A stretch of DNA of 64,000 nucleotides from a virus: positions 1 through 64,000 of IMG/VR virus record IMGVR_UViG_3300045988_076196. One strand, given 5' to 3'. This document shows positions 145 to 64,000 of this stretch, piece after piece (position 1 is the stretch's first letter; each line of letters starts with the position of its first letter). A program made the position numbers and the translations under genes. The notes beneath the pieces were generated by a model. It searched no databases. It saw nothing but the letters and a program-made list of their open reading frames with translations, and was not told the origin of the DNA.

Positions 145-2295
145 TTATTTTATTAAAAAATATCGCAAATAAGTATTCCTTTCCTTTTCTTCTTGTACTC
201 TCAATCCCTCTGAAATAGCCGCCTCATCTCCAATCAATATTAGCCGCTCTTGTGCGCGTGATACTGCTGTATAGCACAAGTTACGGCTTAGCATCCTTAC
301 ATGACTTCTATCAATCACTACAATCACAGCCTTTGCTTGGCTACCTTGGCAACTATGAATAGAAATTGCATATGCTAATAGCGTATTCTTAATATGCGCC
401 TTATCTACTATACAATCACCGCAATCATATCGCACAATCATATATGGATCTTTTTCATCAGGCACAATTTCCATCACCGTGCCAATATCGCCATTTGCTA
501 CAAAAGCTGTATCATCATCAACAAGCGGCATAGCATATTCATTCTTTTTGTTGATTACCTTGTCGCCTACTTTGAAATAAATAGGCGTATCATTGACAGT
601 ATGCCCAACCTTGCTTAATTCATTTGGATTGAATTTGGATTGAATCGCCGCATTGATAGCCAATGAGCCAACATCGCCCTTATTGAATGGAGATAAAATC
701 AGCACATCATCCTTACTATATCCATCTGCTAATAACTGCGCATATTCTTGTTCAATTTGCTTGATTACTAATGTATCAGTTTCAATGAACTTATAATCTG
801 TGAAAGTATCTGTCAGATGGTCATTTACTCCGTTTCGTACATCAGTAGCTATGGTAATAATGCCAGACGTGTTGTATCTGAACACCTTAGTCAAGTTGCA
901 TACAGGCACGATGCCGCTATCAAGCATATCCTCAACAATGTTGCCGCAAGCAATAGATGAAAGCTGAGATGGGTCAGCTATGAAGATGATTTTGGTAGTA
1001 TCTGTTACTTTGTCAAATAGCATTGATAGTAAATGAACGCTAACCATGCCCATCTCATCAATTAGAACATAATCGCCTAGATTACCACCACAAGCCAAAA
1101 ACATATGAATGGTATTGGCTTCACGCCCTGTTGCTTCTCTTAGCCTCTTTGCCGCAATTCCAGTTGGGGATAAGAGGGTATAAGTATAATCATTGGCTTC
1201 TAGCATCTCAATGATTGCCTTGGTTGTTTGACTCTTGCCTGTACCAGCCGAGCCAGTCAACATCATCACATCCTGCTTACAAGCCATCTCAAGAATCTGT
1301 GCCTGTTCATCAGTCAACTCTAATCCGTCTACACTTGTAAACTTCTGCCAATCCATAGGGTAATAATGTGGATTGGTTATTTTTTTCTTGACAACATCAG
1401 CAATATGTTCTTCAGCACTATACGTTGCTTGTAGAGCAGTGTTTTGGCTAGGCGCGTCATAATGTACTTGCGCCGATTTCGTCACAACATCGAGGAGGCG
1501 ATGAACGCATTGAGGAGCTTTACACTTAACCATATCAAATAACTGTTTAGCTTGCATCCTTGTATTACCGTCCAGCTCATTATGTTTTAGAGCATATATA
1601 GTAGCCGCTTCACATCGTTCATAGCTATCCAACCAAATTGCTGTTTTATTGATTATTGCTCTATCTGCTCTATCAAATGACCATTCAAGCAAGTTAATCA
1701 TAATGGCGTATGGATTAGCATTTATATCCTTGCTAAATCCATATACATTTTTATATGTCGCGGCGATTTTGTTTATGTCCTCATCATGCTCAATGCCCCA
1801 AGCATATGTTTCGCCCATAAATTCAACACGCTTGTTGATCGTTTTGATTTTATCGATATATCTGGGCAATAGCACCTTGCCTACGCCACGAATTTTTTTG
1901 TAGTCCAGCTTGGCTTCTTCCCCATTCAGCACCATACTGACAAAGTGAGGATATGCGGCATGGCATGATTCAGCTTGCCCATTGGTCATTAAGCTACGTA
2001 GCGTCTGTAATTCTGCTTTTTCAGTCAAGTTGAATTTGCCATCTTTAGCTACAAATCCAGCAAATCCAATGAATTTATAGCTATATTTATACTTGTCATC
2101 CTCACATGGCTCTATAATACAATCAATGGATTGCCCCATTTTCAAGTCGACAATGCCAGCTCCTTTTAAGCTGATTGTACCATATTGAGGGTGACATTCT
2201 ATTGATTCATCCTTAGTACGACATGATATAATTGAGAAATTGGATTCAGGGTTATTGAATATCATGCGCATTGGGGTTAATTTTACTGTTTGCAT
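145..2295 (-). CDS. RecD/Dda-like SF1B DNA helicase
   Basis: Walker A LTGSAGTGKS, Walker B VLIDEMGMV, C-terminal SIHSCQGSQAKAVIVV motif. ATG 2295 overlaps the upstream stop (TGATG); the ORF track extends to TTG 2298. Confidence 0.9.
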   Translation of the reverse strand: MQTVKLTPMRMIFNNPESNFSIISCRTKDESIECHPQYGTISLKGAGIVDLKMGQSIDCIIEPCEDDKYKYSYKFIGFAGFVAKDGKFNLTEKAELQTLRSLMTNGQAESCHAAYPHFVSMVLNGEEAKLDYKKIRGVGKVLLPRYIDKIKTINKRVEFMGETYAWGIEHDEDINKIAATYKNVYGFSKDINANPYAIMINLLEWSFDRADRAIINKTAIWLDSYERCEAATIYALKHNELDGNTRMQAKQLFDMVKCKAPQCVHRLLDVVTKSAQVHYDAPSQNTALQATYSAEEHIADVVKKKITNPHYYPMDWQKFTSVDGLELTDEQAQILEMACKQDVMMLTGSAGTGKSQTTKAIIEMLEANDYTYTLLSPTGIAAKRLREATGREANTIHMFLACGGNLGDYVLIDEMGMVSVHLLSMLFDKVTDTTKIIFIADPSQLSSIACGNIVEDMLDSGIVPVCNLTKVFRYNTSGIITIATDVRNGVNDHLTDTFTDYKFIETDTLVIKQIEQEYAQLLADGYSKDDVLILSPFNKGDVGSLAINAAIQSKFNPNELSKVGHTVNDTPIYFKVGDKVINKKNEYAMPLVDDDTAFVANGDIGTVMEIVPDEKDPYMIVRYDCGDCIVDKAHIKNTLLAYAISIHSCQGSQAKAVIVVIDRSHVRMLSRNLCYTAVSRAQERLILIGDEAAISEGLRVQEEKERNTYLRYFLIK

Positions 2296-2552
2296 CAATC
2301 CTGTTCCTCAACCAACAATTCATCCCATTGTTCAATAATCATCTTCATCAATTCAGTTGCTCCCCAAGCTGGTTCAAATCCAACACTATATGCGCAACGA
2401 ATATGCGATGTGCCAATAAATGTAACCCACCTATATTTGCTTGCTACTACCTTAAATTCATCGCCAACAATGATTACATTTGCTTTTAGCAAACTATTAC
2501 AGATATGACATACAGCATCAAGCCATGCTTCATAAGTTAATACGTCTTGCAT
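2295..2552 (-). CDS. hypothetical protein (85 aa)
   Basis: AAAGGAGGTG RBS upstream of the ATG; stop overlaps the helicase start. Confidence 0.6.
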   Translation of the reverse strand: MQDVLTYEAWLDAVCHICNSLLKANVIIVGDEFKVVASKYRWVTFIGTSHIRCAYSVGFEPAWGATELMKMIIEQWDELLVEEQD

Positions 2553-2567
2553 TGGGTTACACCTCCT

Positions 2568-2753
2568 TTATCTCAAATCAACAATAGCACAAATCTCAAC
2601 AATCACATCATCATATTTATCAAAACCAGCTTGCTTTTTGACAAAATCTCTTGCTTCGTTTTTCCCTGTGAGTTTTGGTGTAATTATAATCCTACATTCG
2701 TCCCTGCGCGTATCTCTAACTTTTACAATATAATTGCACATATTATAAAACAA
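2568..2753 (-). CDS. hypothetical protein (61 aa)
   Basis: ACAGGAGG RBS; first ORF after promoter 2776..2804. Confidence 0.55.
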   Translation of the reverse strand: MFYNMCNYIVKVRDTRRDECRIIITPKLTGKNEARDFVKKQAGFDKYDDVIVEICAIVDLR

Positions 2754-2775
2754 CCTCCTGTTCTTTGATAAATCA

Positions 2776-2804
2776 AGTATACCATAGAATCAGGAGGTTG
2801 TCAA
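2776..2804 (-). promoter_or_regulatory. sigma70-type promoter
   Basis: minus strand TTGACA 2804..2799, 17 nt, TATACT 2781..2776. Confidence 0.65.
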
Positions 2805-2817
2805 TACCCTATTTTAA

Positions 2818-2997
2818 TTATTTTTCAATCATTTTCTTTAATTCTTCAAATAGCTCATTACCACAAATAGGACAAGTAGAATCAATATCAACCACATATT
2901 TTTCGTCTACCATTAAGCCGCAATTTGGGCATTTGATAGGCGCATATTTTAGTGGATTCTCAATTCGTTTGCGACGATTTCTTTCTGCTCTGCTCAA
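2818..2997 (-). CDS. small zinc-ribbon protein (59 aa, below ORF-track cutoff)
   Basis: TTG start inside the AATTGA overlap with the DHH gene stop; CPNC...CPIC pairs; open to TAA at 2818. Confidence 0.45.
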   Translation of the reverse strand: MSRAERNRRKRIENPLKYAPIKCPNCGLMVDEKYVVDIDSTCPICGNELFEELKKMIEK

Positions 2998-4667
2998 TTA
3001 AAATATTCACTCCAATCAATTTCATTTTCATTTGGCTTATCAATAATCTCATATCGCTCAATAATAGCTTGTGGCTTAATCTGTCCATTATATTCGTTCA
3101 ACCCAAGTGATACTACTACCTCTATAGATTTACCTTGAGCAAATTCAAATTGATTTGCTTCTTCATTATTAACAAAGAATTTTATGAACTCAATGCCATC
3201 CTGAACCAGCTTTACAGTAGTTGAGCGATTACGATAGATATAGATTTGAGGTGATGATAGGGTTAGATGGAATAGTGGCTTTGGTGTTCCTGTCCCCCAT
3301 AGGATATTATTTTCTACACACACATTTGCAAGATTGCGTGTGATATTATTAGGTTCGATCTGAGCCGCAACCTTAATATCTGGTTCTACGTCCAAATCAA
3401 GCCCATCTAAGAATCGTGCAAATCTCTTGAGATTGCTTTTCTTTACTGTGATACCAGCTGCGGCATCATGCCCTTGACATTTAGCCAATCCTGATTCATT
3501 GATAATCTCAAGCAAATCAATAGGACTACGCATTGAGCCAGACCATGTTGTGCTGTTTAGCTCTCTTAGCAGGAATGTTGGCTTATTATATTTACCACAG
3601 AATTTATTTGCTACAAGCCCTAAATAGGACTTATTCTCAGGTTCACCAAATCCGATAATGACTTTATGAGACGTATCAAGCCCATCTGACAGTTTATCTA
3701 CGACTTTCTTAACTTGATAATCCTGCTTAGACTTTACGGCTTTCATAGCTTTCACAGCCGCTTCTGGCTCAATCTTACCAATCAGCGCATCAAAGAATAG
3801 CCGCTTAGTAGATTGGTCGTCACTACGAGCAAGTGCATTAGCAAGAGGCGCAATACCAAATGCAACACCCTCTGGATTAACGCCACGATTGCAACAATGC
3901 TCTAGGCAGTATTTGATGAATGGATTAGTTGGATTGGTCAAGCCGTCATATATATATTTGCGGTTCTCAGGTGAACGCAAGCTGCAAATATCAGAGATTA
4001 GGCTAATGGCTACTAAATCTTTGAAAGATTGAGCAGAGCCAAGCGCACAAGCAAATTTTTCTACAACGCCCGTACCGCTAATATCTGTGTTGATATTTGG
4101 TGTATTATCGGCTCGATATGGGTTGATTACTGTAGCATATCTATTTTGCTTCTCAATAATATGATGGTCTAAGATGATAATATCAATTCCCATACACATC
4201 AGTTCTTCACATTGGTATGTATCATTTGACCCGGCATCTGGCACGATTAGTAAATCTATCTCATCAATAGCGATTTGACTTGCTAGGTCTGATAGCCCAT
4301 GCTCTTTACCAGCGTGAGAGTAGATATGAATATCTTCTAACCCGTTCTCAATACATAGCATATAGACGATAGCCGCAGAACAAGCACCGTCCATATCGGA
4401 ATCAATAACAATACCAACAGAGCCTTTAGTGTGATTGAATAAATTTACAGCCACATCCATATTCTTATACATATTAGGCGATTGATATTCAATGCTATCT
4501 GGATTTAGATATGCGTCAACATCAGCTATGCCACAAGCAGATAAATATTCCCTTAAAAATGTGGTTTCATTAAGGGAATCAAGTAGTGGATGAATCTTAA
4601 TCTGAATCACCATCCTTTTCTGGTAAGTTGATATATGCCCACTGGTCATTATATAGTGCGTCGCCAA
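2994..4667 (-). CDS. DHH/DHHA1 phosphoesterase, RecJ-like ssDNA exonuclease
   Basis: motifs DSDMDG, VPDAGS, ILDHH and QGHDAAAG; start uncertain (TTG 4667, ATG 4649 or ATG 4613). Confidence 0.85.
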   Translation of the reverse strand: MATHYIMTSGHISTYQKRMVIQIKIHPLLDSLNETTFLREYLSACGIADVDAYLNPDSIEYQSPNMYKNMDVAVNLFNHTKGSVGIVIDSDMDGACSAAIVYMLCIENGLEDIHIYSHAGKEHGLSDLASQIAIDEIDLLIVPDAGSNDTYQCEELMCMGIDIIILDHHIIEKQNRYATVINPYRADNTPNINTDISGTGVVEKFACALGSAQSFKDLVAISLISDICSLRSPENRKYIYDGLTNPTNPFIKYCLEHCCNRGVNPEGVAFGIAPLANALARSDDQSTKRLFFDALIGKIEPEAAVKAMKAVKSKQDYQVKKVVDKLSDGLDTSHKVIIGFGEPENKSYLGLVANKFCGKYNKPTFLLRELNSTTWSGSMRSPIDLLEIINESGLAKCQGHDAAAGITVKKSNLKRFARFLDGLDLDVEPDIKVAAQIEPNNITRNLANVCVENNILWGTGTPKPLFHLTLSSPQIYIYRNRSTTVKLVQDGIEFIKFFVNNEEANQFEFAQGKSIEVVVSLGLNEYNGQIKPQAIIERYEIIDKPNENEIDWSEYFN

Positions 4668-27381: not shown

Positions 27382-27474
27382 TGGTACTGGCGCTCGGACT
27401 CGAACCGAGATTTTGCGGCAATCGACCACTAAACTGTGTATAGGACAGCTGGCTTACCATTAACCGACACCAGC
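27382..27474 (-). tRNA. class II tRNA with the non-canonical anticodon loop CCUAUAC
   Basis: acceptor GCUGGUG/CGCCAGU (2 G.U pairs), A73, encoded CCA; D arm GGUU-AAUGGUA-AGCC; T arm CUCGG-UUCGAGU-CCGAG; about 23-nt variable arm; C at position 33. Confidence 0.6.
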
Positions 27475-43107: not shown

Positions 43108-43251
43108 TTGTGGAGCGAAATGAGCTATAACTGGTATGTATCGGAAGATACAGAACCAGAAGTATGGGATGATGAATATGAGCCAACTGAGCGCGATTGG
43201 TCGCTTTGGATATATGGTAGTTCAGAGAATGATTTAGAGGTGATTTTTTGA
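43108..43251 (+). CDS. 47-aa acidic Trp-rich protein, translationally coupled to the RNAP gene
   Basis: AAGGAGG then TTG 43108 (or ATG 43120); stop overlaps the RNAP TTG start (TTTTGA). Confidence 0.45.
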   Translation: MWSEMSYNWYVSEDTEPEVWDDEYEPTERDWSLWIYGSSENDLEVIF

Positions 43252-45131
43252 GCCTACAGACGCAAGTTTATTTGCATTCAGTAGATACGTCATGCTTTTA
43301 TGATGACAACGAAATGACGCTACATAGACGGCTTGTTCGGTTATATTCTTTGCGTAAGCGATGGAAGGATAGTGATAAACCAGATTGGCGTATCAAGTCT
43401 GTAAATCGTTTGCTTAAAAAAGAAAAGGTGCGACTATCTGAATTGCTCGATGATGCAGTGAGACGAAATGAAACTAGAAAATTGCGTCAAGATGCTGTGA
43501 CCGATAAAACGGTTGTTAATCTATTTGAATCTGACTTAACACGCAGCTTAGGACTTGACCCGTTCAAGTTGACAGATGAGCTGTTCATCATTAACGTATT
43601 TTTCTTTCAGGTATTTAATAATCTAGTTCATCAAGGATTTATTTACAATGGTGAAAAATATGTGTTCCTTACAGCATCAGCTGGACAGATAAGAACGAAA
43701 AGAGCCGTATTCGTTAAAGAATCGTCGTTTAAGCGCATTGAGCAAAAATTGATGTGCGGCTTGACCATAGACGAAATCAATGAGCGCGGAGGCATGAATC
43801 AGAATAAATTCCTTGCATATTTGGCGCTTATGAACTCTGCCACAGATGTTTGGGAAGATTTTGATATTGACAAATCAATCGTAGTAGATGATTGGGAAAC
43901 GGCTGTTCCGGGATTGGTTGATCATATTGATGGCGTATCGTATGAGATTCGGCGCGAAATGACAGAGACGATTATTCCTCATATGGACGGATGCGGTATT
44001 ATGCTCAATGAAACAACAAGAATGGTGCGTATGCCATGGGTAAAGGGATTACTTGTTACATTTCCGTTTGATAAGTTTATCAAAGAAAAATGCGGTGGCG
44101 AGGCAACAGTAACGGATATTTATGGCAATGAGCATAAAATTATAGAGGAAGATATACGGTATATATTCACAAAAAGCCAATTCAAGCTATGGAAATTTTA
44201 TGATTCGTGGAATTGTTATAAGGCGCGATTCAAAAATTTTGGATGCAATGCTTGTTATTGCAACATAGAAGAACCGTATATTCCAAAGAGCCGCATCAAT
44301 TATCAGATGCTTCAAACCTTGAGTGATATGACTGATAATGAGATTGATCGCATTATTTCTAAGACTGCGCAAGAGATTGACGATGTTGGTAAAGATTATC
44401 AAGTTACTATGCGGTTACTTGGCGCAACAGAGAACAATCGTTATAAATCAGCTATGCAAGAGGCGTTGCTGATTTATCCTGAATTATTCAAAGATTCATA
44501 TAATCGAGAAATTCTGAAGCAGACTAAAAAGAGCCTAGTTAAACAAGCCAAAGGTGGGCGGCTTAGAGTAAATGGGAAATATTTATTCTTAGCGCCTGAC
44601 TTGTATGCGTTTTGTGAATGGCTGTTCCTAGGTGAGCAGAATCCACAGGGACTGCTTGCAGATGGTGATGTATATACTAATCAATATCGTGATGGTGATG
44701 AATTAGCTTGTTTGCGTTCTCCGCATTTGTATAGGGAATGGGCAATTCGGACAAATAGGCGTAGCTTAGAGCTTGATTATTGGTTTGGTGGAACTAAGTG
44801 TATATATACTAGTTGTCATGATTTAATAACAAGGATAGTTATGGCGGACTGCGACGGTGATAAATTATTGGTTGTAAAAGACCGAACATTGACAAATTGT
44901 GCGAAAAGGAATATGTCTGATATTTGTACTTTGGCATATGATCTCAAAAAGGCGAAGGGAGGTTTGGTAAATTCAGATAGCTTATACGAAGGAATGATTA
45001 GAGCATATACCGGTGGCAACATTGGTATTTGGAGTAATCAAATAACTAAAATTTGGAATAGCGGGAATATTACTAAGGAAGAATTGGACGTTGTAAAATG
45101 GTTGTGTTTTGAGAATAATGCAGTAATTGAT
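43248..45131 (+). CDS. YonO/RdRP-like single-subunit RNA polymerase, exon 1
   Basis: ASAGQIRTKRAVFV and the metal-binding loop MADCDGDKLLVV (DCDGD = nt 44847..44861). Confidence 0.8.
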
Positions 45132-46162
45132 TAAATGATAGTCCACTCATGCGGCAACGCATGATGTGAATGATGGTGAACTCGTAAATGCGAGGTGTGC
45201 GGAGAAATCCGTGCTAACGGTAAAACCCTAAACGTATGAACGCATGGCAATACCGTGGCAAGATTGTGTGATAAATATTAAGATGAAAGGAGGGACAATA
45301 TGAGAAAGATTAGTTTGATTGGCAAGAAATTTGGGAGATTGACGGTTTTATCTGATGCTGGAACAAAAGGTGGTAGAACATATTCTAACTGTCTATGCGA
45401 TTGTGGTAAAATGGTGGTAGTTAGTAACAAACATCTAAAAAGTGGGCATACAAAATCTTGTGGATGTTATAAAAACGAAATTATTGGCGAAATTGGTAAA
45501 ATAACCGGCAAGACAAATATCAAGTATGCGCAAAAGCAAGCACATGAAAATAATAGAAAACATGATATGTCTGGAACAAGATTGTATAGAATTTGGTTAC
45601 AGATGAAACAGAGATGTCACAACGAGAAGAACGACAGGTATCAATATTATGGCGGTAAGGGCGTTTGCGTTTGTGATGAATGGAGAGAAGATTTTCAAGA
45701 ATTTGAACAATGGTCGAATAACAATGGATATAGAGATGACTTGACCATTGATAGAATAAATTCTAATAAAAATTATGAACCGTCTAATTGTCGTTGGATA
45801 TCTCAAAGTGAAAATAGCGCAAGAATACATCGTGATGTGAGATACTGGTGTATTGATGTACAAGGCGGAAGATATGCAGAATTTGACAATATTAGAGAAT
45901 TTTGCAGAAATAATCCTGAGATCGCAAATGAGAATCATGTGAGATACGCTGTTAGCGGAAAATGTGAAAATCAAGGCGATATTATATTTGGCAAGTTTTA
46001 ATATTTTATCACACAATAAGCTGTAACGACTAGCCCATTAGGGCGTAGCTTGTAGGTGAAATTCCTACTCGCAAAGTGCCATCCATCTCTATGAGATGAA
46101 GAGATAGTCTACTCCGACTGTTTGAGCAGTGTTAAAGTATCTCGAAAGAGACGGTATGAAGG
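45132..46162 (+). mobile_element. group I-like intron carrying a homing endonuclease ORF
   Basis: exon 1 ends in U and the intron ends in G. GNRA-capped hairpins at 45148..45163, 45200..45211 and 46140..46151. A 12-bp helix (45264..45275 / 46005..46016) closes the ORF-bearing loop. Confidence 0.7.
45300..46001 (+). CDS. intron-encoded homing-endonuclease-like protein
   Basis: AAAGGAGGG RBS; CLCDCG...SGHTKSCGCYKNE; LTIDRINSNKNYEPSNCRWIS; paralog of 11837 and 12554. Confidence 0.75.
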   Translation: MRKISLIGKKFGRLTVLSDAGTKGGRTYSNCLCDCGKMVVVSNKHLKSGHTKSCGCYKNEIIGEIGKITGKTNIKYAQKQAHENNRKHDMSGTRLYRIWLQMKQRCHNEKNDRYQYYGGKGVCVCDEWREDFQEFEQWSNNNGYRDDLTIDRINSNKNYEPSNCRWISQSENSARIHRDVRYWCIDVQGGRYAEFDNIREFCRNNPEIANENHVRYAVSGKCENQGDIIFGKF

Positions 46163-50403: not shown

Positions 50404-52248
50404 ATGAAGAGTCAAATGGGAGGACTTCGTAGGAAGTTTATGTCCAACCACTTAATCACGACCGAGGCATGGTCTGGTAAAAGCAAATCGGAAGAGAAAG
50501 AGCAAAACGCAATAGAGTGGCTGACTCTTTTTTAGTTCCGTAGGAATTGGCACATATATGTAGATATGGTGCTTGGTATTAAGCTAAGGCCATTCCAGAT
50601 GGTTATGATATATTTAATGGGTATATCTCCATTCTTTTATGCAATCTGTTCTAGAGGTTTGTCAAAATCATTTATGGCTGGACTTGGAGCAATATGTAAG
50701 ATGAATCTATATCCGTATAGCGAGATTGTTATTACATCGTCTACTGTTCAACAGGCTAATAAATTAGCTGATAAAAAGATACGCGATGAAATAATTAAGA
50801 AGCTCTCAAGTTATTTGTTATACATGTACGAGCATGAGTATATAGTTATAACAAAGCCGGATGATGGTACAAAGATAGAAAATAAGTTAAATGGCTCAAC
50901 TATTGTTGTATTGCCGTGTACTGAGGCAAGCCGTGGTGAACGTGCAACACTGCTTATTTATGAAGAGGTGCGTTTGCTTAAAAAGACAATTCTTGATGCG
51001 GTCTTTGAAAAGATGCCACACCCAAGACAGGCCAAATATATGGATAATCCTGTTTATGGGAATAATAAACGATGGATTGAAGAATGCCAGCGTATCTACA
51101 TTACGTCCGCAAGATATAAATATGAATGGTTTTGGCGTTCTTTTAAGAATGTGTTCACTCAGCATTTTATAGACAAGCGCGTCAATCATAATGTTTTTGC
51201 TGGTGATATATTTATGGCAATAGATAATCGCTTAAAGACGTGGGCTGATTATCGCAAAGACAAGGCGGAGTCTGAGATGGATTGGAAAATGGAAGACCTC
51301 AACCAGATGATAGGCGAGGCTGAGGATGCGTTTTTCACATACGAGCAATTTAAGACAGCGCAAATTTTACAGCATTGTTTTAGACCTCTTACATACCTTG
51401 ATTTCTTCTCTGGTGAACAGGTTGATTTTCCAGAGAAAAAGGAAGATGAAGTGCGACTCGTTGTGGTTGACTACGCATTTTCCAACACTACTGGTTGTAC
51501 AAAGAACGACAATACCATTATTACGCTCATGTCGGCGCATTGGGATAAAAAGAAAAATCGGTTTGAACGTCATATTGATTATATAGAGGGACATGATGCT
51601 TCTGACACAATAGGCGCATCTGATAGAGCGAGATACTTATGGTGGGTATATGATGCGGATTATCTATGTCCCGATGGACGCTCTGGTGGTGAAGTTCTAT
51701 TCAATCATATGACAGAGCCATTGTCTTGGCCGGAATTAGGACTTAGGTGGAATAAGCACGGATTAGGTCTTGCAGATAAATACCAGATGGTTCCACAAGC
51801 AAAATTGGATGATTATAGAAGTCGTGTCGTTGACAAAGATGCAGTTCCAGCTATTATACCCGTGATAGGCACACCAGAGTTGAACTCTACTGGTTGGTTG
51901 TCACTGCGTAAACAGCTTGAAACTAACAATATGAAATTCCTTATTTCTATGCAAGATTATCAGAATGAGCTAACAGATAGTGGTGAATATTATAAATATA
52001 CTGCTGAAGAATTAGTTAATCAGCTTGAGCCATACGGACAGACAGATATGACAATCATAGAGGCAGTTAATCTAAAGACGGTTATTAAGCAAGATAAAAT
52101 CAAACTAGAAGAACCGCGCACAGGAACTAAGGATAGAATTGTAACCATTATGTATGGAAATTATATTATTGACTTGATTGAGAACGCATGGCAACAACAG
52201 TTACAAGAAGATGAGTTTGATGTTGATTCGATTCAATTAGTATATTAG
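50404..52248 (+). CDS. terL: terminase large subunit with an in-frame TAG at 50533..50535
   Basis: LGIKLRPFQ, Walker A-like CSRGLSKS, Walker B LLIYEE. The uninterrupted ORF is 50566..52248; the RBS (GGTGGTG) precedes ATG 50404. Confidence 0.8.
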
Positions 52249-52398
52249 TATTTGCCTATGAAGCGGTAGCTATGTTGGTGTGTTGCCGTGGAGGCACTAT
52301 TAGGGTTGTGTGGAATCCAAGTTCCAACTGAGGCTTAATCAAAAAAAGTTGAAAATAAAAACACTCAAAAAATATAAAACAAGGAAAGGAGGTTGAAG

Positions 52399-53976
52399 AT
52401 GCCAAAAAATAATGAAGATGTGAAGCTGTCTAAAAATGACCTTCAGGATATTATTGATTTTAGTGCAGGTCTGATGGCGGTTGATAATTTTTACTCACCA
52501 TTTCTGAGCAACCAGCTATTGACCAATCTAAACAATAATCCTCGTCTACCTAATGCAGAGGCGGTAAAAAAGGCGCTCAATGATTATAAGAATAGCGGCG
52601 CCGATTTACAGGGTTTTGTAGAATTTGCATCAGCGTTTGATATGATTTTCAAGCGCACTTTATATTCTTATGCAAATGCGCTATCTTTCGACCTTCAGAT
52701 AACGTGCAAAAATGCATATACAAAGGGCGACTATGAATCAGAGGAATATAAGAAAGACCGGCAGACAGTAGATAATTTCTTGACCAATTTTGATTACAAG
52801 AAAGAATTTTATAATGTTCTGCTAAATGTCTTAAAGCGCGACTCATATTTTACTTGGTTTAGAAAGACTAAGAGCGGTAATCGCGGCAAGATGAAGTATG
52901 CTCTACAAATTATGCCACAAGATTATTGTATGCTTACGGGGTACTTTGAAAAAGGGTTGCTGTGGTCTTTTAATGTACTGTATTTTATGCAACCGGGCGT
53001 AGATATTGAGGGATTTGACCCAAGTCTCAAAAAGACATATCTTGATGCGATTGAAAATGCTGAGTTAAATTACAAGCCGTCTGCGCCACTCGATAAACGT
53101 AATGGTAGTTATGCTCTATGGGCAGATGTATCACCACTTAATGGTGCTTATGCTTGGAAATTTTCTACAGATAACTTTGCTAACAATCCATTCTTATCGC
53201 CATATGTAGCAAATGTTTTACGTAGTGATGAGGTTGGAGAATTACAGTATAACAAAGATCTTATCTCTGCGGCTGGTATTCTAGCTGGTGAGATTAGATT
53301 ATTTGATTCAGCCAAGTCAGGCACGAAGGCGAATCAGTTCGCCATTGATCCGAAAACGCTTGGTGCATTTATGCAAAAGGCGGCTAATGGACTAAAGAAT
53401 GCTGCCAAACTAGCAGCTATACCACTTGAGAATATTAAATATTTCCAATTTGAGGATAAGAACCCAAATAGCTATACAAATGAGCTAACTACAACAGCTG
53501 GTATTGGTACTGGCATTAGCCGTGTTATCTATTCATCCGATAAGATGAGTAATGCTGAACTAGAGGCGGCGCTTAATGAGGTCTATCAGACCATGAAGCC
53601 AATGTATGCTCAGTTCAATAATTTCCTTGATTTCTATGTGAATCAAATGACAAGCAAATATAAGTTTAAGTTTGAGTTTGTTGGTTCTAACTATCAATTT
53701 GAGCGCGATGCTAGATTTGATAAGATGATGAAAATGGCTGATAAGGGGCTTGTACTCAATTCATCTGCATGGGCTAGTGCTGTTGGTATGAACCCTGTCA
53801 CATTTGATAGGATGCTTGCTGAGAGTAAATATACTGGATGGATTGATAAGTATTCGACCATGATGCTTAACGCTAATACATCGTCTTACAAAGATAATAA
53901 GGGCGGGCGTGAACGCAAGAACGCTAGAGATTTGACCGATTCAGGCGAAGCAAGCCGAGAAACATTAGAGGAATGA
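52399..53976 (+). CDS. portal protein (by position and size)
   Basis: 525 aa directly after terL; AAGGAAAGGAGG RBS 6 nt before ATG 52399. Confidence 0.6.
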   Translation: MPKNNEDVKLSKNDLQDIIDFSAGLMAVDNFYSPFLSNQLLTNLNNNPRLPNAEAVKKALNDYKNSGADLQGFVEFASAFDMIFKRTLYSYANALSFDLQITCKNAYTKGDYESEEYKKDRQTVDNFLTNFDYKKEFYNVLLNVLKRDSYFTWFRKTKSGNRGKMKYALQIMPQDYCMLTGYFEKGLLWSFNVLYFMQPGVDIEGFDPSLKKTYLDAIENAELNYKPSAPLDKRNGSYALWADVSPLNGAYAWKFSTDNFANNPFLSPYVANVLRSDEVGELQYNKDLISAAGILAGEIRLFDSAKSGTKANQFAIDPKTLGAFMQKAANGLKNAAKLAAIPLENIKYFQFEDKNPNSYTNELTTTAGIGTGISRVIYSSDKMSNAELEAALNEVYQTMKPMYAQFNNFLDFYVNQMTSKYKFKFEFVGSNYQFERDARFDKMMKMADKGLVLNSSAWASAVGMNPVTFDRMLAESKYTGWIDKYSTMMLNANTSSYKDNKGGRERKNARDLTDSGEASRETLEE

Positions 53977-61356: not shown

Positions 61357-62170
61357 TATTGAGGTCCTAGAAAAAGGATATTTTTATTTCGATAAGCCAG
61401 TTCCTTACAAATTGTCGGACACGACCCATGTTGATATAACGCCTATATCAGTATATGACAGTGAGGTCTTTTTGTCAAGTTGTGATATTCTCCAAATAGA
61501 TAAAAACGCGCTTAATTCTGTTGAGATAATTCAGATGAGTTATCTTGATTTTTTGCTGAAAGTCATGTTGCCTACAGATAAATCTGGTCTATTGCTAGAT
61601 AAACTGAGCAATATTTTTAGATTGTGTCTGGGTATGAAGACTTGGAAATTAAAAGTAAAAGAGAAACAGAAATTAAGTATAGTTGCCCCAGATGATTCTT
61701 TTGAAATCACAGGTAAGCAATTTGATGATATTAAGCGCATTATATTGTATCAGAATGTGCCGCATTACGATGATACATATATCGACCCAGATTTGAAAAA
61801 GATGATGGGCGAAGTGGATAGGCTTAAAAGTCAAGGTATTAGTACACCTAACCTAGAGCGACGCATGGCCATCATTACGGCTCATTGTGGCATTAATAAA
61901 CAAACATTGATGCAGTATACAATGCGGTCATTACAGTTGCTATTTGAAGAATGCGCAGGTGAGGTTGAGTTTACAACTTTGCGTCCTATTATGTTATATG
62001 CTGGAAAAGCTAAAGAGCTTGAGCATTGGATATACAAGAAAAAGAAAGATAGGCTTGATGGGTATGTTACATCTGTTGAGTCGTACAATAAATCTATGGG
62101 TGGAGATGGCGTAGTTAAACAAGCCAACTCCGATATGATAAAACAAATAAATAATATTGTAAATCAATAA
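61340..62170 (+). CDS. hypothetical structural protein (276 aa)
   Basis: late operon. Confidence 0.6.
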   Translation: MIVAIDIEVLEKGYFYFDKPVPYKLSDTTHVDITPISVYDSEVFLSSCDILQIDKNALNSVEIIQMSYLDFLLKVMLPTDKSGLLLDKLSNIFRLCLGMKTWKLKVKEKQKLSIVAPDDSFEITGKQFDDIKRIILYQNVPHYDDTYIDPDLKKMMGEVDRLKSQGISTPNLERRMAIITAHCGINKQTLMQYTMRSLQLLFEECAGEVEFTTLRPIMLYAGKAKELEHWIYKKKKDRLDGYVTSVESYNKSMGGDGVVKQANSDMIKQINNIVNQ

Positions 62171-62184
62171 GGAGGAAATCTTAT

Positions 62185-62319
62185 ATGAGAAAGTTCCTAG
62201 CTGGCGTTGGCGATGCTATTCTCCTTAAGGGTCAGACTATCATCGGCTTTGCCAAAACTCTAACAGAATCAACCTTTGGCTTTACTATTTCTAGTGAAGA
62301 AATCCGTGGCGGCAAGGGT
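62185..62319 (+). CDS. tail-module structural protein (tube/sheath candidate), exon 1
   Basis: AAGGAGGAAATCTTAT-ATG; MRKFLAGVGDAILLKGQ...EEIRGGKG, then the frame runs into TAA at 62338. Confidence 0.6.
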
Positions 62320-62526
62320 AAAAATTGCCCTCTGCGTTAAGTAATTAGCGTATGACTTCGGGTTAAATGCTTTGAATCCCTAAAGCCCACATACCTAAAC
62401 AGTAGTTGGAAACGACAAGCTGAATGGTTACGAAAGTAGAAAAAAGTTGTGGGATGGCTATACGGTTAAATCCTAAGTAGCTTATACCGATAAAATGGGT
62501 GTTTAGCAGAGAAGTCCCTAAATATA

Positions 62527-62555
62527 TTGACATATTTATAACAATGTGATATAAT
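62527..62555 (+). promoter_or_regulatory. sigma70-type promoter inside the intron
   Basis: TTGACA 62527..62532, 17 nt, TATAAT 62550..62555. Confidence 0.6.
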
Positions 62556-62767
62556 ATACATGGGAAACTTTCAACGAATATCTCCTTGTGGGAGAAGTAG
62601 AACCTCAAGCATATGGAGGAAGAAAAATCCGACCCCTATAAAATAGGGTGAACATATATTCTACTCTCATGTGAAAGCATGAGCAGACTGCTAGTAATAG
62701 TAAGTCGATATTGGCGTTGCGAACCAATATGAATACAAAATATTTTATACTAAAAGGAATGTTATGT

Positions 62768-63841
62768 ATGTTGTTATCAAAAGTTGTTAAGTTGAAATGG
62801 AACACAAAGAATAGAAAACATTACGAAAGTATTGGATATATATTTACTAAATATGGTGATGAATTTGATGTAAAAGTCGAAGATTTGACACCTTCTAGTA
62901 AAGTTGTTGTTGAGGTTGAATGTGACTTTTGTCATAGCGTTGTTGTGAAAAAGAAATATCAAACATATAATATACAGCATCACGAAAAATATGGGGATTG
63001 TTGTGCATCATGCCAATCTAAAAAGAATAAGTTGATATGTATGGATAAATATGGCGTTGACAATGGTTCTAAGACAGAATATGCCATTGAAAAAATAAAA
63101 CAAGTTAGTATGGAGAGATATGGTGTAGATAACCCATCTAAGATAAGCGATGTAAGACGCAAGTTAAGCGAAATAGCTAAGGCTAATTCAGAAGATGTTA
63201 TCACTAAGAGAAATCAGACCATGCTAGAAAAATATGGCACGACATCACCAATGGACTTAGATATTGTCAAAGAGAAACAACGTGATACTCTATTGAAGAA
63301 TTATGGCGTTGAGCATCCAAAGCAAAGTGAAGAAATAAAAATGAGAGAACGTCAACGGAATATTGAGAAATATGGTGTTGATAATCCTATGAAACTTAAA
63401 TCCGTAAGAGATAAGATAAAGGCAACGTGTCTTGAAAAATATGGCGTTGAATGCTCATTAAGCTCACCAGATGTTAGAGCTAAAATTAACAAAACATTAC
63501 TTGAAAATGGTAATGTAAAAACATCTAAACAACAACTTCAACTACAACAACTATTAAAAGAAATATATGGAGATTGTGACTTAAACAAGCCGTGTGGTTC
63601 ATGCTTTCTTGATTGTGTAATTGAATATAATGGTGTCAATATAGATATTGAATATGATGGTGAATATTGGCATCAAGATACACAACAAGATAGGCGTAGA
63701 GACGAATTTGTCAAATCACAAGGATATAAAATTCTGCGCATTCGTGGAAGATATGACATTCCAAATAAAGAACAACTTGTGAAACATATTGAAGAATTGG
63801 TAAATTCACAACATACATTCGATATAATTAAAATGGTATAA
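62768..63841 (+). CDS. intron-encoded endonuclease: repeat array + Vsr/DUF559-like PD-(D/E)XK module
   Basis: six roughly 30-aa repeats (KYGVDNPSK-type); C-terminal IEYDGEYWHQD...DRRRDEF...GYKILRIRG; AAAGGA RBS 9 nt before ATG 62768. Confidence 0.7.
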   Translation: MLLSKVVKLKWNTKNRKHYESIGYIFTKYGDEFDVKVEDLTPSSKVVVEVECDFCHSVVVKKKYQTYNIQHHEKYGDCCASCQSKKNKLICMDKYGVDNGSKTEYAIEKIKQVSMERYGVDNPSKISDVRRKLSEIAKANSEDVITKRNQTMLEKYGTTSPMDLDIVKEKQRDTLLKNYGVEHPKQSEEIKMRERQRNIEKYGVDNPMKLKSVRDKIKATCLEKYGVECSLSSPDVRAKINKTLLENGNVKTSKQQLQLQQLLKEIYGDCDLNKPCGSCFLDCVIEYNGVNIDIEYDGEYWHQDTQQDRRRDEFVKSQGYKILRIRGRYDIPNKEQLVKHIEELVNSQHTFDIIKMV

Positions 63842-63854
63842 AATATAATTAGGT

Positions 63855-64000
63855 AATGCACTAATCGGTAAATATTATCATGATTCTGGTCTAACTGTTC
63901 AGATTACTGACTCTTGCTTCAAGCTAGAGTATATTGCGGCCAATCTTGGTGTTGATCTACAGAAGGGCGGTCTTGGTGTTTATCAGGGCGAACTGGTTGT
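63855..64000 (+). CDS. tail-module structural protein, exon 2 (partial, runs off the window)
   Basis: frame open from 63849; NALIGKYYHDSGLTVQITDSCFKLEYIAANLGVDLQKGGLGVYQGELV. Confidence 0.55.

What the first reader, a model, noticed from the sequence alone, without database searches (positions are those of the whole stretch)
62185..64000. Second group I-like intron in a tail-module gene, with an internal consensus promoter and a repeat-rich PD-(D/E)XK endonuclease
A well-initiated 45-codon reading frame (...EEIRGGKG) stops being protein-like at 62320. The frame resumes at 63855 (NALIGKYYHDSGLTVQITD...).

A P1 helix can be drawn with the canonical U.G wobble: exon AGGGU 62315..62319 pairs with GCCCU 62327..62331. 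AAU at 63855 can pair with AUU 62324..62326 to form P10. GGT occurs at both junctions, so the cut position slides by 1 nt and omega-G would be 63853.

The 1.5-kb insert has UUCG- and GAAA-capped hairpins and a perfect TTGACA-17-TATAAT promoter at 62527..62555. It also has a 357-aa ORF. That ORF has six KYGVDNPSK-type repeats of about 30 aa and a C-terminal IEYDGEYWH...DRRRDEF...GYKILRIRG module of the Vsr/DUF559-like nuclease type.

Having both the RNAP gene and a tail gene intron-interrupted in one phage is unusual.
Basis: partly seen in the sequence, partly recalled or inferred. Interest (0 to 1): 0.7.

Follow-up and report, generated by a model that had tools for sequence, protein, structure and literature searches.

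The report
Self-splicing intron in phage tail-tube gene
A 1.5-kb self-splicing group I intron carrying its own homing-endonuclease gene interrupts the tail-tube gene of an abundant gut phage; this is a familiar kind of mobile element, with the less common feature that it seems to cut one base upstream of the usual splice signal.

Summary
The insert is most likely 62319..63853 (1535 nt).

- **Junction:** Joining the two exons gives a protein that aligns without a gap to intron-less homologues. A 90%-identical intron-less allele reads ...AAGGGT|AATGCA... straight through.
- **RNA fold:** The 5' 440 nt form a group I ribozyme of subgroup IA2. On a structure-blind alignment of 53 distinct relatives, 83% of cells pair (33-42% when partners are slid) and 85 of 95 pairs show changes on both sides. 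Rfam RF00028 scores only 24-31 bits (cut-off 50), but it also misses published relatives.
- **Endonuclease:** The 357-aa ORF combines a zinc ribbon, six KYGV repeats (DUF7487) and an EDxHD/Vsr-like nuclease. Its best solved-structure match is I-Bth0305I.
- **ORF placement:** The ORF lies in the 3' tail inside a 13-bp AU stem. A perfect extended -10 promoter sits in the P6 loop.
- **Splice register:** U(-1) and a terminal G cannot both hold. Only GGG|U...G|U keeps the frame, and the same is true in two sister introns at other sites. This matches the G(-1) splice site shown experimentally for "group B" IStron ribozymes, which are close relatives.

This is a new member of a known kind, of moderate interest.

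The parts
62185..62318 (+). Exon 1 of the tail-tube gene, M...EEIRGGK plus the first two bases of the G45 codon. RBS AAGGAGG is at 62170-62176.
   Evidence: ORF list and sequence. Homologue alignment. The end at G62318 is inferred from the frame and the need for a terminal G.
62319..63853 (+). Group I (IA2) intron, 1535 nt, U...G. The register is inferred. The alternative 62320-63854 gives the same mRNA.
   Evidence: Intron-less allele L091. Family homology. Covariation.
62315..62331 (+). P1: AGGG 62315-18 pairs with CCCU 62328-31, and U62319.G62327 closes a 7-nt loop. The loop bases 62324-26 and G62327 pair with exon 2 (P10).
   Evidence: The same geometry is seen in sister introns.
62333..62352 (+). 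P2, 8 bp with a GUAA loop.
   Evidence: helices 2-3 show compensatory changes.
62358..62361 (+). P3 5' strand UCGG. It pairs with CCGA 62629-62632.
   Evidence: helix 4: 93.9% paired, four pair types per position.
62369..62507 (+). P4 (62369-71/62505-07), P5 (62378-80/62497-99) and an extended P5 domain. The domain holds P5a 62386-91/62448-53, GAAA-capped P5b 62400-22 and P5c 62428-39, and P5d 62456-82.
   Evidence: helices 5-13. Most are 88-99% paired; P5c is 75.5% and the two outermost P5d pairs 46.7%.
62510..62569 (+). P6, a two-part stem (62510-11/62568-69 and 62515-18/62562-65). Its loop holds a ~28-nt insertion specific to this lineage.
   Evidence: helices 14-15. The insertion is visible in alignments A2 and A4.
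62527..62555 (+). Sigma-70-type promoter TTGACA-17-TATAAT with a TG extended -10, inside the P6 loop and pointing towards the ORF.
   Evidence: 12/12. The hexamers are kept while the spacer varies within the lineage, and they are kept in sister intron L022 (TTGACC-17-TATAAT, unrelated spacer).
62570..62581 (+). J6/7 plus the P7 5' strand (UUCAAC GAAUAU). P7 pairs with AUAUUC 62656-62661 (pseudoknot) and keeps the G-C pair that binds guanosine.
   Evidence: helix 16: 94% paired. The window carries a compensatory C-G to A-U change relative to most relatives.
62582..62619 (+). P7.1 (62582-85/62591-94) and P7.2 (62603-06/62616-19), lying between P7 and P3'. This is the IA2 hallmark.
   Evidence: helices 17-20: 96-100% paired.
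62629..62661 (+). P3' (62629-32), P8 (62634-39/62643-48), J8/7 (GAACAUAU) and P7' (62656-61).
   Evidence: match to the Rfam S element. helix 21.
62666..62730 (+). P9 (62666-83, GAAA loop), P9.1 (62686-706, GUAA loop) and P9.2 (62708-30).
   Evidence: helices 22-25: 75-81% paired.
62740..62752 (+). 5' arm of a 13-bp AU-rich stem. It pairs with 63834-63846 and so encloses the ORF and brings the 3' end back to the core.
   Evidence: RNAfold of the joined flanks and of the ORF-less natural variant.
62768..63841 (+). Homing-endonuclease gene, 357 aa: 4-Cys zinc ribbon, six KYGV repeats (DUF7487), and a C-terminal EDxHD/Vsr-like nuclease (E295, D297, H302, D308).
   Evidence: Pfam and PHROGs. 3739 homologues and invariant residues. 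The profile's best PDB hit is 3R3P, I-Bth0305I.
63834..63853 (+). 3' arm of the enclosing stem (63834-46, covering the ORF stop codon), then AAUUAGG ending in the proposed omega-G 63853.
63854..64000 (+). Exon 2 of the tail-tube gene (U + NALIGKYYHDS...), cut by the window end. The full spliced protein is 356 aa in sister contig L010.

Best explanation
The insert is a mobile group I intron of subgroup IA2 in the tail-tube gene of an SPbeta-like gut phage.

**Ribozyme.** The first ~440 nt fold into the complete ribozyme: P1-P9.2, an enlarged P5 domain, and P7.1/P7.2.

**ORF placement.** The homing-endonuclease ORF sits in the 3' tail. A 13-bp AU-rich stem closes over it, which places the last seven intron bases and the terminal G next to the core.

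**Splicing (inferred).** Splicing joins G62318 to U63854 and restores GGKG-NALIG.
- The 5' cut is one base upstream of the U.G pair, so the 5' exon ends in G and the intron starts with U.
- This is the arrangement demonstrated for group B IStron ribozymes, which belong to the same RNA family.
- After the first step, the first base of exon 2 (U) takes over the wobble position opposite G62327 and extends into P10.

**Endonuclease expression (inferred).** The endonuclease is an EDxHD/Vsr-like nuclease fused to a zinc ribbon and six KYGV repeats. It is probably transcribed from its own promoter in the P6 loop. That transcript lacks P1-P6 5', so it cannot splice.

**Mobility (inferred).** The enzyme would cut intron-less alleles and drive homing.

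**Shown versus inferred.** Shown here: the exon junction, the fold, family membership, the domain make-up of the ORF, and the existence of ORF-less and intron-less alleles. Inferred: the exact cut register, catalytic activity, promoter use, and endonuclease activity and target.
For: **Junction**
- The spliced 93 aa match nine phage proteins in a single piece, with a gap-free alignment.
- Intron-less allele L091 has ~90% exon DNA identity and reads ...GGTGGTAAGGGT|AATGCACTAATCGG.

**RNA family**
- 144 phage records match the 5' 470 nt. These include c-st CbISt3, a published IA2 IStron, at 76% identity over the aligned pieces (best piece E = 1e-20), and the annotated joined CDS of phage SEP1.
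- A leave-lineage-out profile hits 62316-62741 at E = 3.4e-83, and it is the only hit in the window.

**Fold**
- 83.0% of cells pair, against 33-42% for slid partners.
- 85 of 95 pairs show changes on both sides.
- The covariation score is 0.513 against ~0.1, and 0 of 500 shuffles reach it.
- P3, P4, P5, P5a, outer P6, P7, P7.1 and P7.2 are each at least 92% paired; the inner P6 helix is 88%.
- RF00028 aligns P2-P9 at E = 4.6e-6 on the ORF-less copy.

**Splice register**
- In the window and in two sister introns at other sites, only G(-1)/terminal-G (or U/U) keeps the frame.
- P7 retains its G-C pair.
- Tourasse et al. 2014 showed by RT-PCR that BcISt1 splices after AGGG and that U is the first intron base (PMC4227781).

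**P10**
- Each intron's L1 pairs best with its own exon 2, with 4, 7 and 5 consecutive pairs. For the window one cross-combination ties at 4.

**Endonuclease:**

**Promoter:**

**Alleles**
- Of the 12 related loci screened, nine carry the endonuclease motif and three lack it.
- Two of those three (L012, L014) are 481-nt in-frame deletion forms that leave MLLS-MV*. The third (L073) was not examined further.
- One further locus (L091) is intron-less.
Against: - RF00028 does not reach its curated cut-off (23.9 and 30.9 bits against 50).
- No splicing data exist for this element.
- The cut register cannot be read from the sequence. Exon 2 begins with U in all three sister introns, so GGG|U...G|U and GGGU|...GU| give identical mRNAs.
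- My automated screen for a relative that would break the tie was inconclusive.
- The match to the I-Bth0305I structure is marginal (E = 0.007), and single-sequence search found nothing.
- The promoter is a consensus match only.
Confidence: 0.9

Rival explanations
1. Same intron, but with the canonical 5' cut after U62319 (U.G at the splice site). Exon ligation would then occur one base past the last G, so the intron is 62320..63854 and ends in ...GGU.
For: - The U62319.G62327 wobble is in the column where canonical relatives such as EF1TV and SEP1 have their splice-site U.
- P10 (AAU/AUU) is also in register for exon 2 starting at 63855.
- All three sister introns would end in GU.
Against: - A terminal U cannot occupy the guanosine site (established group I mechanism).
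- P7 keeps its normal G-C pair.
- The related BcISt1 ribozyme was shown experimentally to cut after G, with U as the first intron base (PMC4227781).
Confidence: 0.2
2. A decayed IStron: a transposon-borne group I intron whose IS607 genes were replaced. It would move by transposition rather than by homing.
For: - One of the closest relatives in the phage collection is the IS607-type CbISt3 of phage c-st.
- The target ends in GG, the first base is U, and an AU-rich stem encloses the ORF region, all as described for group B IStrons.
Against: - There is no TnpA or TnpB. The only ORF is an EDxHD-type endonuclease.
- No RAGATH-18/omega-RNA-like element was found at E<=10.
- The 3' end is AGG, not CGG.
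- The intron sits at the same site in every intron-bearing contig of this phage lineage that was aligned. That fits homing rather than transposition.
Confidence: 0.04
3. A non-splicing insertion of a free-standing endonuclease gene that splits or inactivates the tube gene. The RNA similarity would be a relic.
For: RF00028 is below threshold and there is no expression data.
Against: - Exon 2 has no start codon or RBS.
- The 51-aa exon-1 product is listed in 777 blocks of the collection, on 92-97 kb phage contigs. The ribozyme is nearly invariant across the four lineage copies aligned.
- Every core helix is intact in the window, including a compensatory change in P7.
- L1 matches exon 2.
Confidence: 0.02

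Closest known systems
Group B (IS607-type) IStron ribozymes: BcISt1, CbISt1-4 including phage c-st CbISt3 (Tourasse et al. 2014, PMC4227781; Zedaveinyte et al., bioRxiv 10.1101/2023.11.20.567912)
   Same: - Same IA2 RNA family. The c-st element matches at 76% identity over the aligned pieces and sits in the same covarying alignment.
- The ribozyme is at the 5' end and the ORF in the 3' tail, inside an AU-rich stem.
- The target ends in (A/T/C)GGG, the first intron base is U, and the U.G pair is immediately followed by a loop.
   Different: - It carries a homing endonuclease instead of TnpA/TnpB and has no guide-RNA element.
- It ends in AGG rather than CGG.
- It occupies a fixed site in one gene, not many GG sites.
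- Exon 2 starts with U in all three examples seen, whereas IStron 3' flanks are reported as variable.
Twort-like/Herelleviridae phage group I introns, including Twort orf142-I2 (the crystallised ribozyme), and the SEP1, EF1TV and Golestan tail-gene introns
   Same: - IA2 layout with P7.1/P7.2 and the shared R/S elements.
- They interrupt phage structural genes. Twort orf142 is itself annotated as tail tube.
- Many copies carry an ORF after P9.2 with its own promoter.
   Different: - EF1TV allows only a canonical U(-1)/terminal-G junction, and SEP1 can satisfy one.
- The Twort orf142 introns are much smaller and match the family profile only over J8/7-P7'-P9.
- In the window the promoter lies inside the P6 loop rather than just upstream of the ORF.
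I-Bth0305I, prototype of the EDxHD homing endonucleases (Taylor et al. 2011, PMC3239194; PDB 3R3P)
   Same: - Encoded in a phage group I intron.
- C-terminal Vsr-like nuclease with conserved E, D, H, D residues.
- Best solved-structure match of the family profile.
   Different: - The N-terminal DNA-binding part here is a zinc ribbon plus six KYGV/DUF7487 repeats, not two NUMOD2-like motifs.
- The ORF is in the 3' tail rather than in P5.
- Sequence similarity is marginal (E = 0.007).
Phage T4 sunY/nrdD intron (own knowledge, not tested here)
   Same: The ORF lies in the 3' peripheral region downstream of a complete core, so the 3' splice site is far from the ribozyme. Intron ORFs are expressed from their own promoters.
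   Different: Different host clade, different endonuclease family, and canonical splice sites.

Membership tests
Group I intron | Reaches the curated score of Rfam RF00028 | tested here: not met
   23.9 bits with the ORF and 30.9 bits on the ORF-less copy, against a cut-off of 50. The model also misses the published CbISt3 and the annotated SEP1 intron, so it is insensitive to this lineage.
Group I intron | Conserved core P3-P9 with the P3/P7 pseudoknot, supported by covariation | tested here: met
   83% of cells paired against 33-42% when slid. 85 of 95 pairs show double changes. P3 is 93.9% and P7 94.0% paired.
Group I intron | R and S elements (J6/7-P7, J8/7-P7') and a G-C guanosine-binding pair in P7 | tested here: met
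   UUCAACGAAUAU and GAACAUAUAUUC.
Group I intron | U.G wobble at the 5' splice site together with a terminal G | tested here: not met
   No in-frame pair of cut sites has both. The options are G/G, G/G, U/U, A/A, or A at the 3' end. The same holds in two sister introns. A published exception exists for the related group B IStron ribozymes.
Group I intron | P1 and P10 pairing of both exons to one guide sequence | tested here: met
Group I intron | Guanosine-dependent self-splicing | not testable with these tools
   Needs RNA work.
Subgroup IA2 | P7.1 and P7.2 between P7 and P3', and an extended P9 (P9.1, P9.2) | tested here: met
   helices 17-20 (96-100% paired) and 22-25 (75-81%). These features are as listed in PMC4227781.
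Group B IStron | GG-ending target, U as first base, AU-rich stem around the ORF region | tested here: met
   AAGGG|U. 13-bp stem 62740-52/63834-46.
Group B IStron | IS607 TnpA (serine recombinase) and/or TnpB in the 3' part | tested here: not met
   The only ORF is DUF7487 + DUF559. This is therefore not an IStron.
EDxHD homing endonuclease | Conserved E, D, H, D catalytic residues in a Vsr-like domain | tested here: met
   E295, D297, H302 and D308 are invariant in 24 diverse homologues. PF04480 scores 27.2 bits against a cut-off of 20.6. 3R3P is the best PDB hit, E = 0.007.
EDxHD homing endonuclease | NUMOD-type N-terminal DNA-binding region as in I-Bth0305I | tested here: not met
   Pfam finds DUF7487 repeats instead, plus an invariant 4-Cys motif.
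EDxHD homing endonuclease | Cleaves the intron-less allele near the insertion site | not testable with these tools
   A candidate target is available in L091.

The most novel reading that the evidence does not exclude
This would be a homing-endonuclease-driven lineage of phage introns, not transposon-borne, that systematically splices after G instead of U. Three sister introns sit at three different GGG^U sites, and each regenerates the guide-complementary GGGU on ligation. That would make the one-base shift of the 5' splice site an intrinsic property of this ribozyme lineage rather than an adaptation to IS607's GG target. It would also supply a natural 481-nt ORF-less ribozyme for working out how a group I core can ignore its own U.G wobble.
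Probability: 0.5. Interest if true: 0.45.

Novelty: new member of a known kind. Interest (0 to 1): 0.3.

Why it matters
- **Annotation.** Gene callers split this tube gene into a 51-aa stub and a headless 218-244-aa ORF. The stub is listed in 777 blocks of the collection. Knowing the intron lets the 356-aa tail-tube protein be restored.
- **Database gap.** Rfam's single group I model misses a whole, well-populated IA2 lineage that includes published elements.
- **Biology.** The element links the endonuclease-mobilised phage introns to the IStron ribozymes. It offers a compact natural system, with full, ORF-less and intron-less alleles co-circulating, for studying the unusual G(-1) splice site and the homing cycle.

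Tried and rejected
- **Rfam on the window** found no group I intron at gathering score or at E<=1. Only narrow scans gave sub-threshold hits.
- **Megablast of the region** against phages found nothing.
- **Single-sequence PDB search with the ORF** gave only noise.
- **First hand-drawn fold.** I took AGCAGA/UCUACU as P7 and ACUUC/GAAGU as P3. The family alignment showed this was wrong. Those bases belong to P4' and P6.
- **Sequencing error at 63854 (G read as T).** Rejected, because independent assemblies and variants keep AGGT.
- **Alternative in-frame junctions with U(-1) and a terminal G.** They exist only by deleting RGGKG or NALIGKYYHDSGLTVQ, or by adding KNC. All three conflict with the homologues.
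- **Other mechanisms.**
  - Group II intron: no GUGYG, no reverse transcriptase.
  - Intein: in-frame stops.
  - Translational bypass: the gap is 1.5 kb.
  - A +1 frameshift after canonical splicing: GGU UAA gives no workable slip.
- **Locating the published 2559-bp CbISt3 ends in my c-st locus** did not reproduce a GG|U start. I left this unresolved.
- **Automated screen for a relative whose exon 2 does not start with U** was too noisy.
- **The family profile on Twort orf142** matches only the 3' core, so I do not claim close kinship with the crystallised ribozyme.
Full report
**What is there**

A strongly initiated frame (AAGGAGG, ATG 62185) reads ...EEIRGGKG and runs into a stop six codons later. 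A second frame opens at 63855 with NALIGKYYHDS and has no start codon of its own.

- The two pieces joined give 93 aa. These match nine phage proteins in a single piece each, among them the 348-aa 'major tail protein' of Enterocloster phage PMBT24.
- The alignment crosses the junction without a gap, as EEIRGGxGNxLxGKYxHDS.
- Other assemblies of the same phage show that the exon-2 product carries PF27173 (YonU_Tube-type, listed as YomU_Tube) and Big_2. The neighbours are YonD, YonB, YomX and YomW homologues. The gene is therefore the tail tube of an SPbeta-like siphovirus of about 92-97 kb.
- The 51-aa exon-1 read-through product is listed in 777 blocks of the collection, so the phage is abundant.
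- A contig with ~90% identical exons has no insert and reads ...CGTGGTGGTAAGGGT|AATGCACTAATCGG, encoding 356 aa.

The junction is thus established at both the protein and the DNA level, and the insert is optional.

**What the RNA is**

Rfam finds no group I intron in the window at its curated threshold.

- Narrow scans give RF00028 at 23.9 bits, mostly J8/7-P7'-P9.
- On a natural 481-nt ORF-less copy the score is 30.9 bits, aligned from P2 to P9. Both are below the cut-off of 50.
- The 5' 470 nt nevertheless match 144 phage records at 65-76% identity. These include the element upstream of IS607-type OrfA/OrfB in Clostridium phage c-st, published as the IA2 IStron CbISt3, and the joined 'tail lysin' CDS of Staphylococcus phage SEP1.
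- None of five such loci reaches the Rfam threshold either. The model is insensitive to this lineage.

I collected 71 more loci with a core motif and aligned 55 sequences without structural information. I read the helices from compensatory changes and counted them.

- 83.0% of cells pair, against 33-42% when partners are slid.
- 85 of 95 pairs show changes on both sides.
- The covariation score is 0.513 against about 0.1, and no shuffle out of 500 reaches it.
- P3 is 93.9% paired with four pair types per position.
- P7, written as a pseudoknot, is 94.0% paired. The window has GAAUAU/AUAUUC where most relatives have GACUAU/AUAGUC.
- P7.1 and P7.2 lie between P7 and P3', and P9 is followed by P9.1 and P9.2. 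This is the IA2 layout as described for IStron ribozymes (PMC4227781).
- A profile built without this lineage and its sisters hits 62316-62741 at E = 3.4e-83, and nothing else in the window.

Helix coordinates are and in the parts list.

**The splice-site problem**

GGTAA occurs at both ends, so the same mRNA results from cutting at G/A, G/G, G/G, U/U, A/A or A/A. None of these has both U before the 5' cut and G as the last intron base.

- The 3' sequence AGGT|AATGC recurs in independent assemblies, with variation just upstream, so it is not an error.
- Two sister introns (75% identical) sit at other sites: FLAG|VG of the tube gene (L028, L022) and SKG|GT of the capsid gene (L022). Both show the same pattern, GGGU at the 5' side and ...GU at the 3' side. 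Canonical cutting would add one base and break the frame.
- Tourasse et al. 2014 describe this for group B IStrons. The target is AGGG, TGGG or GAGG, the first intron base is U, and the 5' exon ends in G. The U.G pair is shifted one base into the intron and followed directly by a loop. They verified this by RT-PCR of ligated exons and intron circles for BcISt1.
- The window's P7 keeps the G-C pair that binds guanosine, so a terminal G is expected.

I therefore place the intron at 62319..63853. This is an inference by homology and mechanism. In the three phage introns exon 2 begins with U, so the sequence alone cannot exclude the U/U reading.

A consequence of the shifted reading is that the first base of exon 2 replaces the intron's U opposite G62327 and continues into P10. 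The consecutive pairs number 4, 7 and 5 in the three introns. Each L1 fits its own exon 2 best, although for the window one cross-combination ties at 4.

**The ORF**

The ORF 62768-63841 encodes 357 aa.

- It matches PF24308 DUF7487 (E = 2e-30), PF04480 DUF559 (above its cut-off) and PHROGs annotated as homing endonuclease.
- There are 3739 homologues at E<=1e-5, many from ~90-100 kb contigs.
- In 24 diverse homologues the invariant residues include four Cys (52, 55, 79, 82), the G/Y of the KYGV repeats, and E295, D297, H302, D308 and R311.
- A profile of these finds 3R3P, the catalytic domain of I-Bth0305I, as the best solved structure (E = 0.007), and the DUF559 structure 3HRL next.
- The nuclease is therefore of the EDxHD/Vsr-like kind (PMC3239194). 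Its DNA-binding part differs from the prototype.

**How the parts fit**

- The ORF lies after P9.2.
- A 13-bp AU-rich stem (62740-52 with 63834-46, spanning the stop codon) closes over the ORF. It leaves AAUUAGG before exon 2.
- The ORF-less form in L012 and L014 is an in-frame deletion that keeps this stem and a six-codon remnant.
- The perfect TTGACA-17-TATAAT with TG is the only 12/12 site in the region.
- That promoter sits in a ~28-nt insertion in the P6 loop that most relatives lack.
- Within the lineage the spacer varies while both hexamers are kept. The sister intron has TTGACC-17-TATAAT with an unrelated spacer. This argues for selection on the promoter.
- A transcript from this promoter would lack P1-P6 5' and so could serve as a stable message for the endonuclease (inference).
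- Full, ORF-less and intron-less alleles co-occur, as expected for a homing cycle.

**Comparison and novelty**

This is a group IA2 intron with a homing endonuclease in a phage structural gene, which is a well-known kind.

- Twort orf142, with its three introns, is itself a tail-tube gene.
- Zedaveinyte et al. already noted that IStron-type introns are interleaved with endonuclease-bearing relatives.
- Tourasse et al. noted a Turicibacter intron with a GG-ending site.
- New here are the host gene and phage, and the pairing of this ribozyme lineage with an EDxHD-type enzyme.
- Also new are the promoter in L6 and three non-transposon examples that seem to share the G(-1) splice site.
- Two introns in one phage is not unusual. 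The RNAP-gene region of this window also gives a sub-threshold group I hit.

**Limits**

No expression or activity data exist. The cut register, promoter use and endonuclease target are inferred.

Noticed in passing
window 45874-46132 (+), with ORFs 43248-45134 and 45300-46001: RF00028 gives a sub-threshold hit (26.6 bits, E = 2e-4 in a 1.25-kb scan) with R/S-like elements GUAACGACUA ... GAAGAGAUAGUCU. It lies just downstream of a YonO-like RNA polymerase ORF (PF05183). It belongs to a different family from the tube-gene intron.
   Followed up: partly
window 52253-52369 (+): A drum RNA (RF02958, 49.7 bits, above threshold) almost exactly fills the gap between two large ORFs with no Pfam match (50566-52248 and 52393-53976).
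   Followed up: no
window 27385-27474 (-): A tRNA gene on the minus strand is unusually long at 90 nt, which suggests a long variable arm or an insertion.
   Followed up: no
L006 4805-4866 (phage c-st) and L008 3019-3108 (Staphylococcus phage StAP1): RAGATH-18 RNA (about 61 bits) lies inside relatives of this intron family. In the c-st IStron it comes after the TnpB-like OrfB. In StAP1 it lies between P9.2 and a 233-aa ORF in an intron with no transposase annotated in the stretch shown.
   Followed up: no
L009 ~2190-4300 (Staphylococcus phage Golestan-105-M): The tail-tube gene appears to hold two group I introns almost back to back. The first is small and ORF-less. The second belongs to the family studied here and carries a 431-aa ORF.
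   Followed up: no
L022 763-1142 and 6927-~8285: A sister phage contig carries introns of this family in both the major capsid gene (ORF-less, ~380 nt) and the tail-tube gene (with a 309-aa endonuclease). Both have the GGG|U...G|U junction pattern.
   Followed up: yes
L014 3513-4601 and 8866-9732: One variant of the same phage has extra endonuclease-like genes in the structural module: a 362-aa product with a faint DUF7559 hit and a 288-aa NUMOD1 product. This module seems to be a hotspot for selfish genes.
   Followed up: no
window 62185-62340 and loci L010-L019: Gene callers report the tube gene as a 51-aa stub plus a headless 216-244-aa ORF that starts at internal codons, so the true 356-aa protein is absent from protein collections.
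   Followed up: partly
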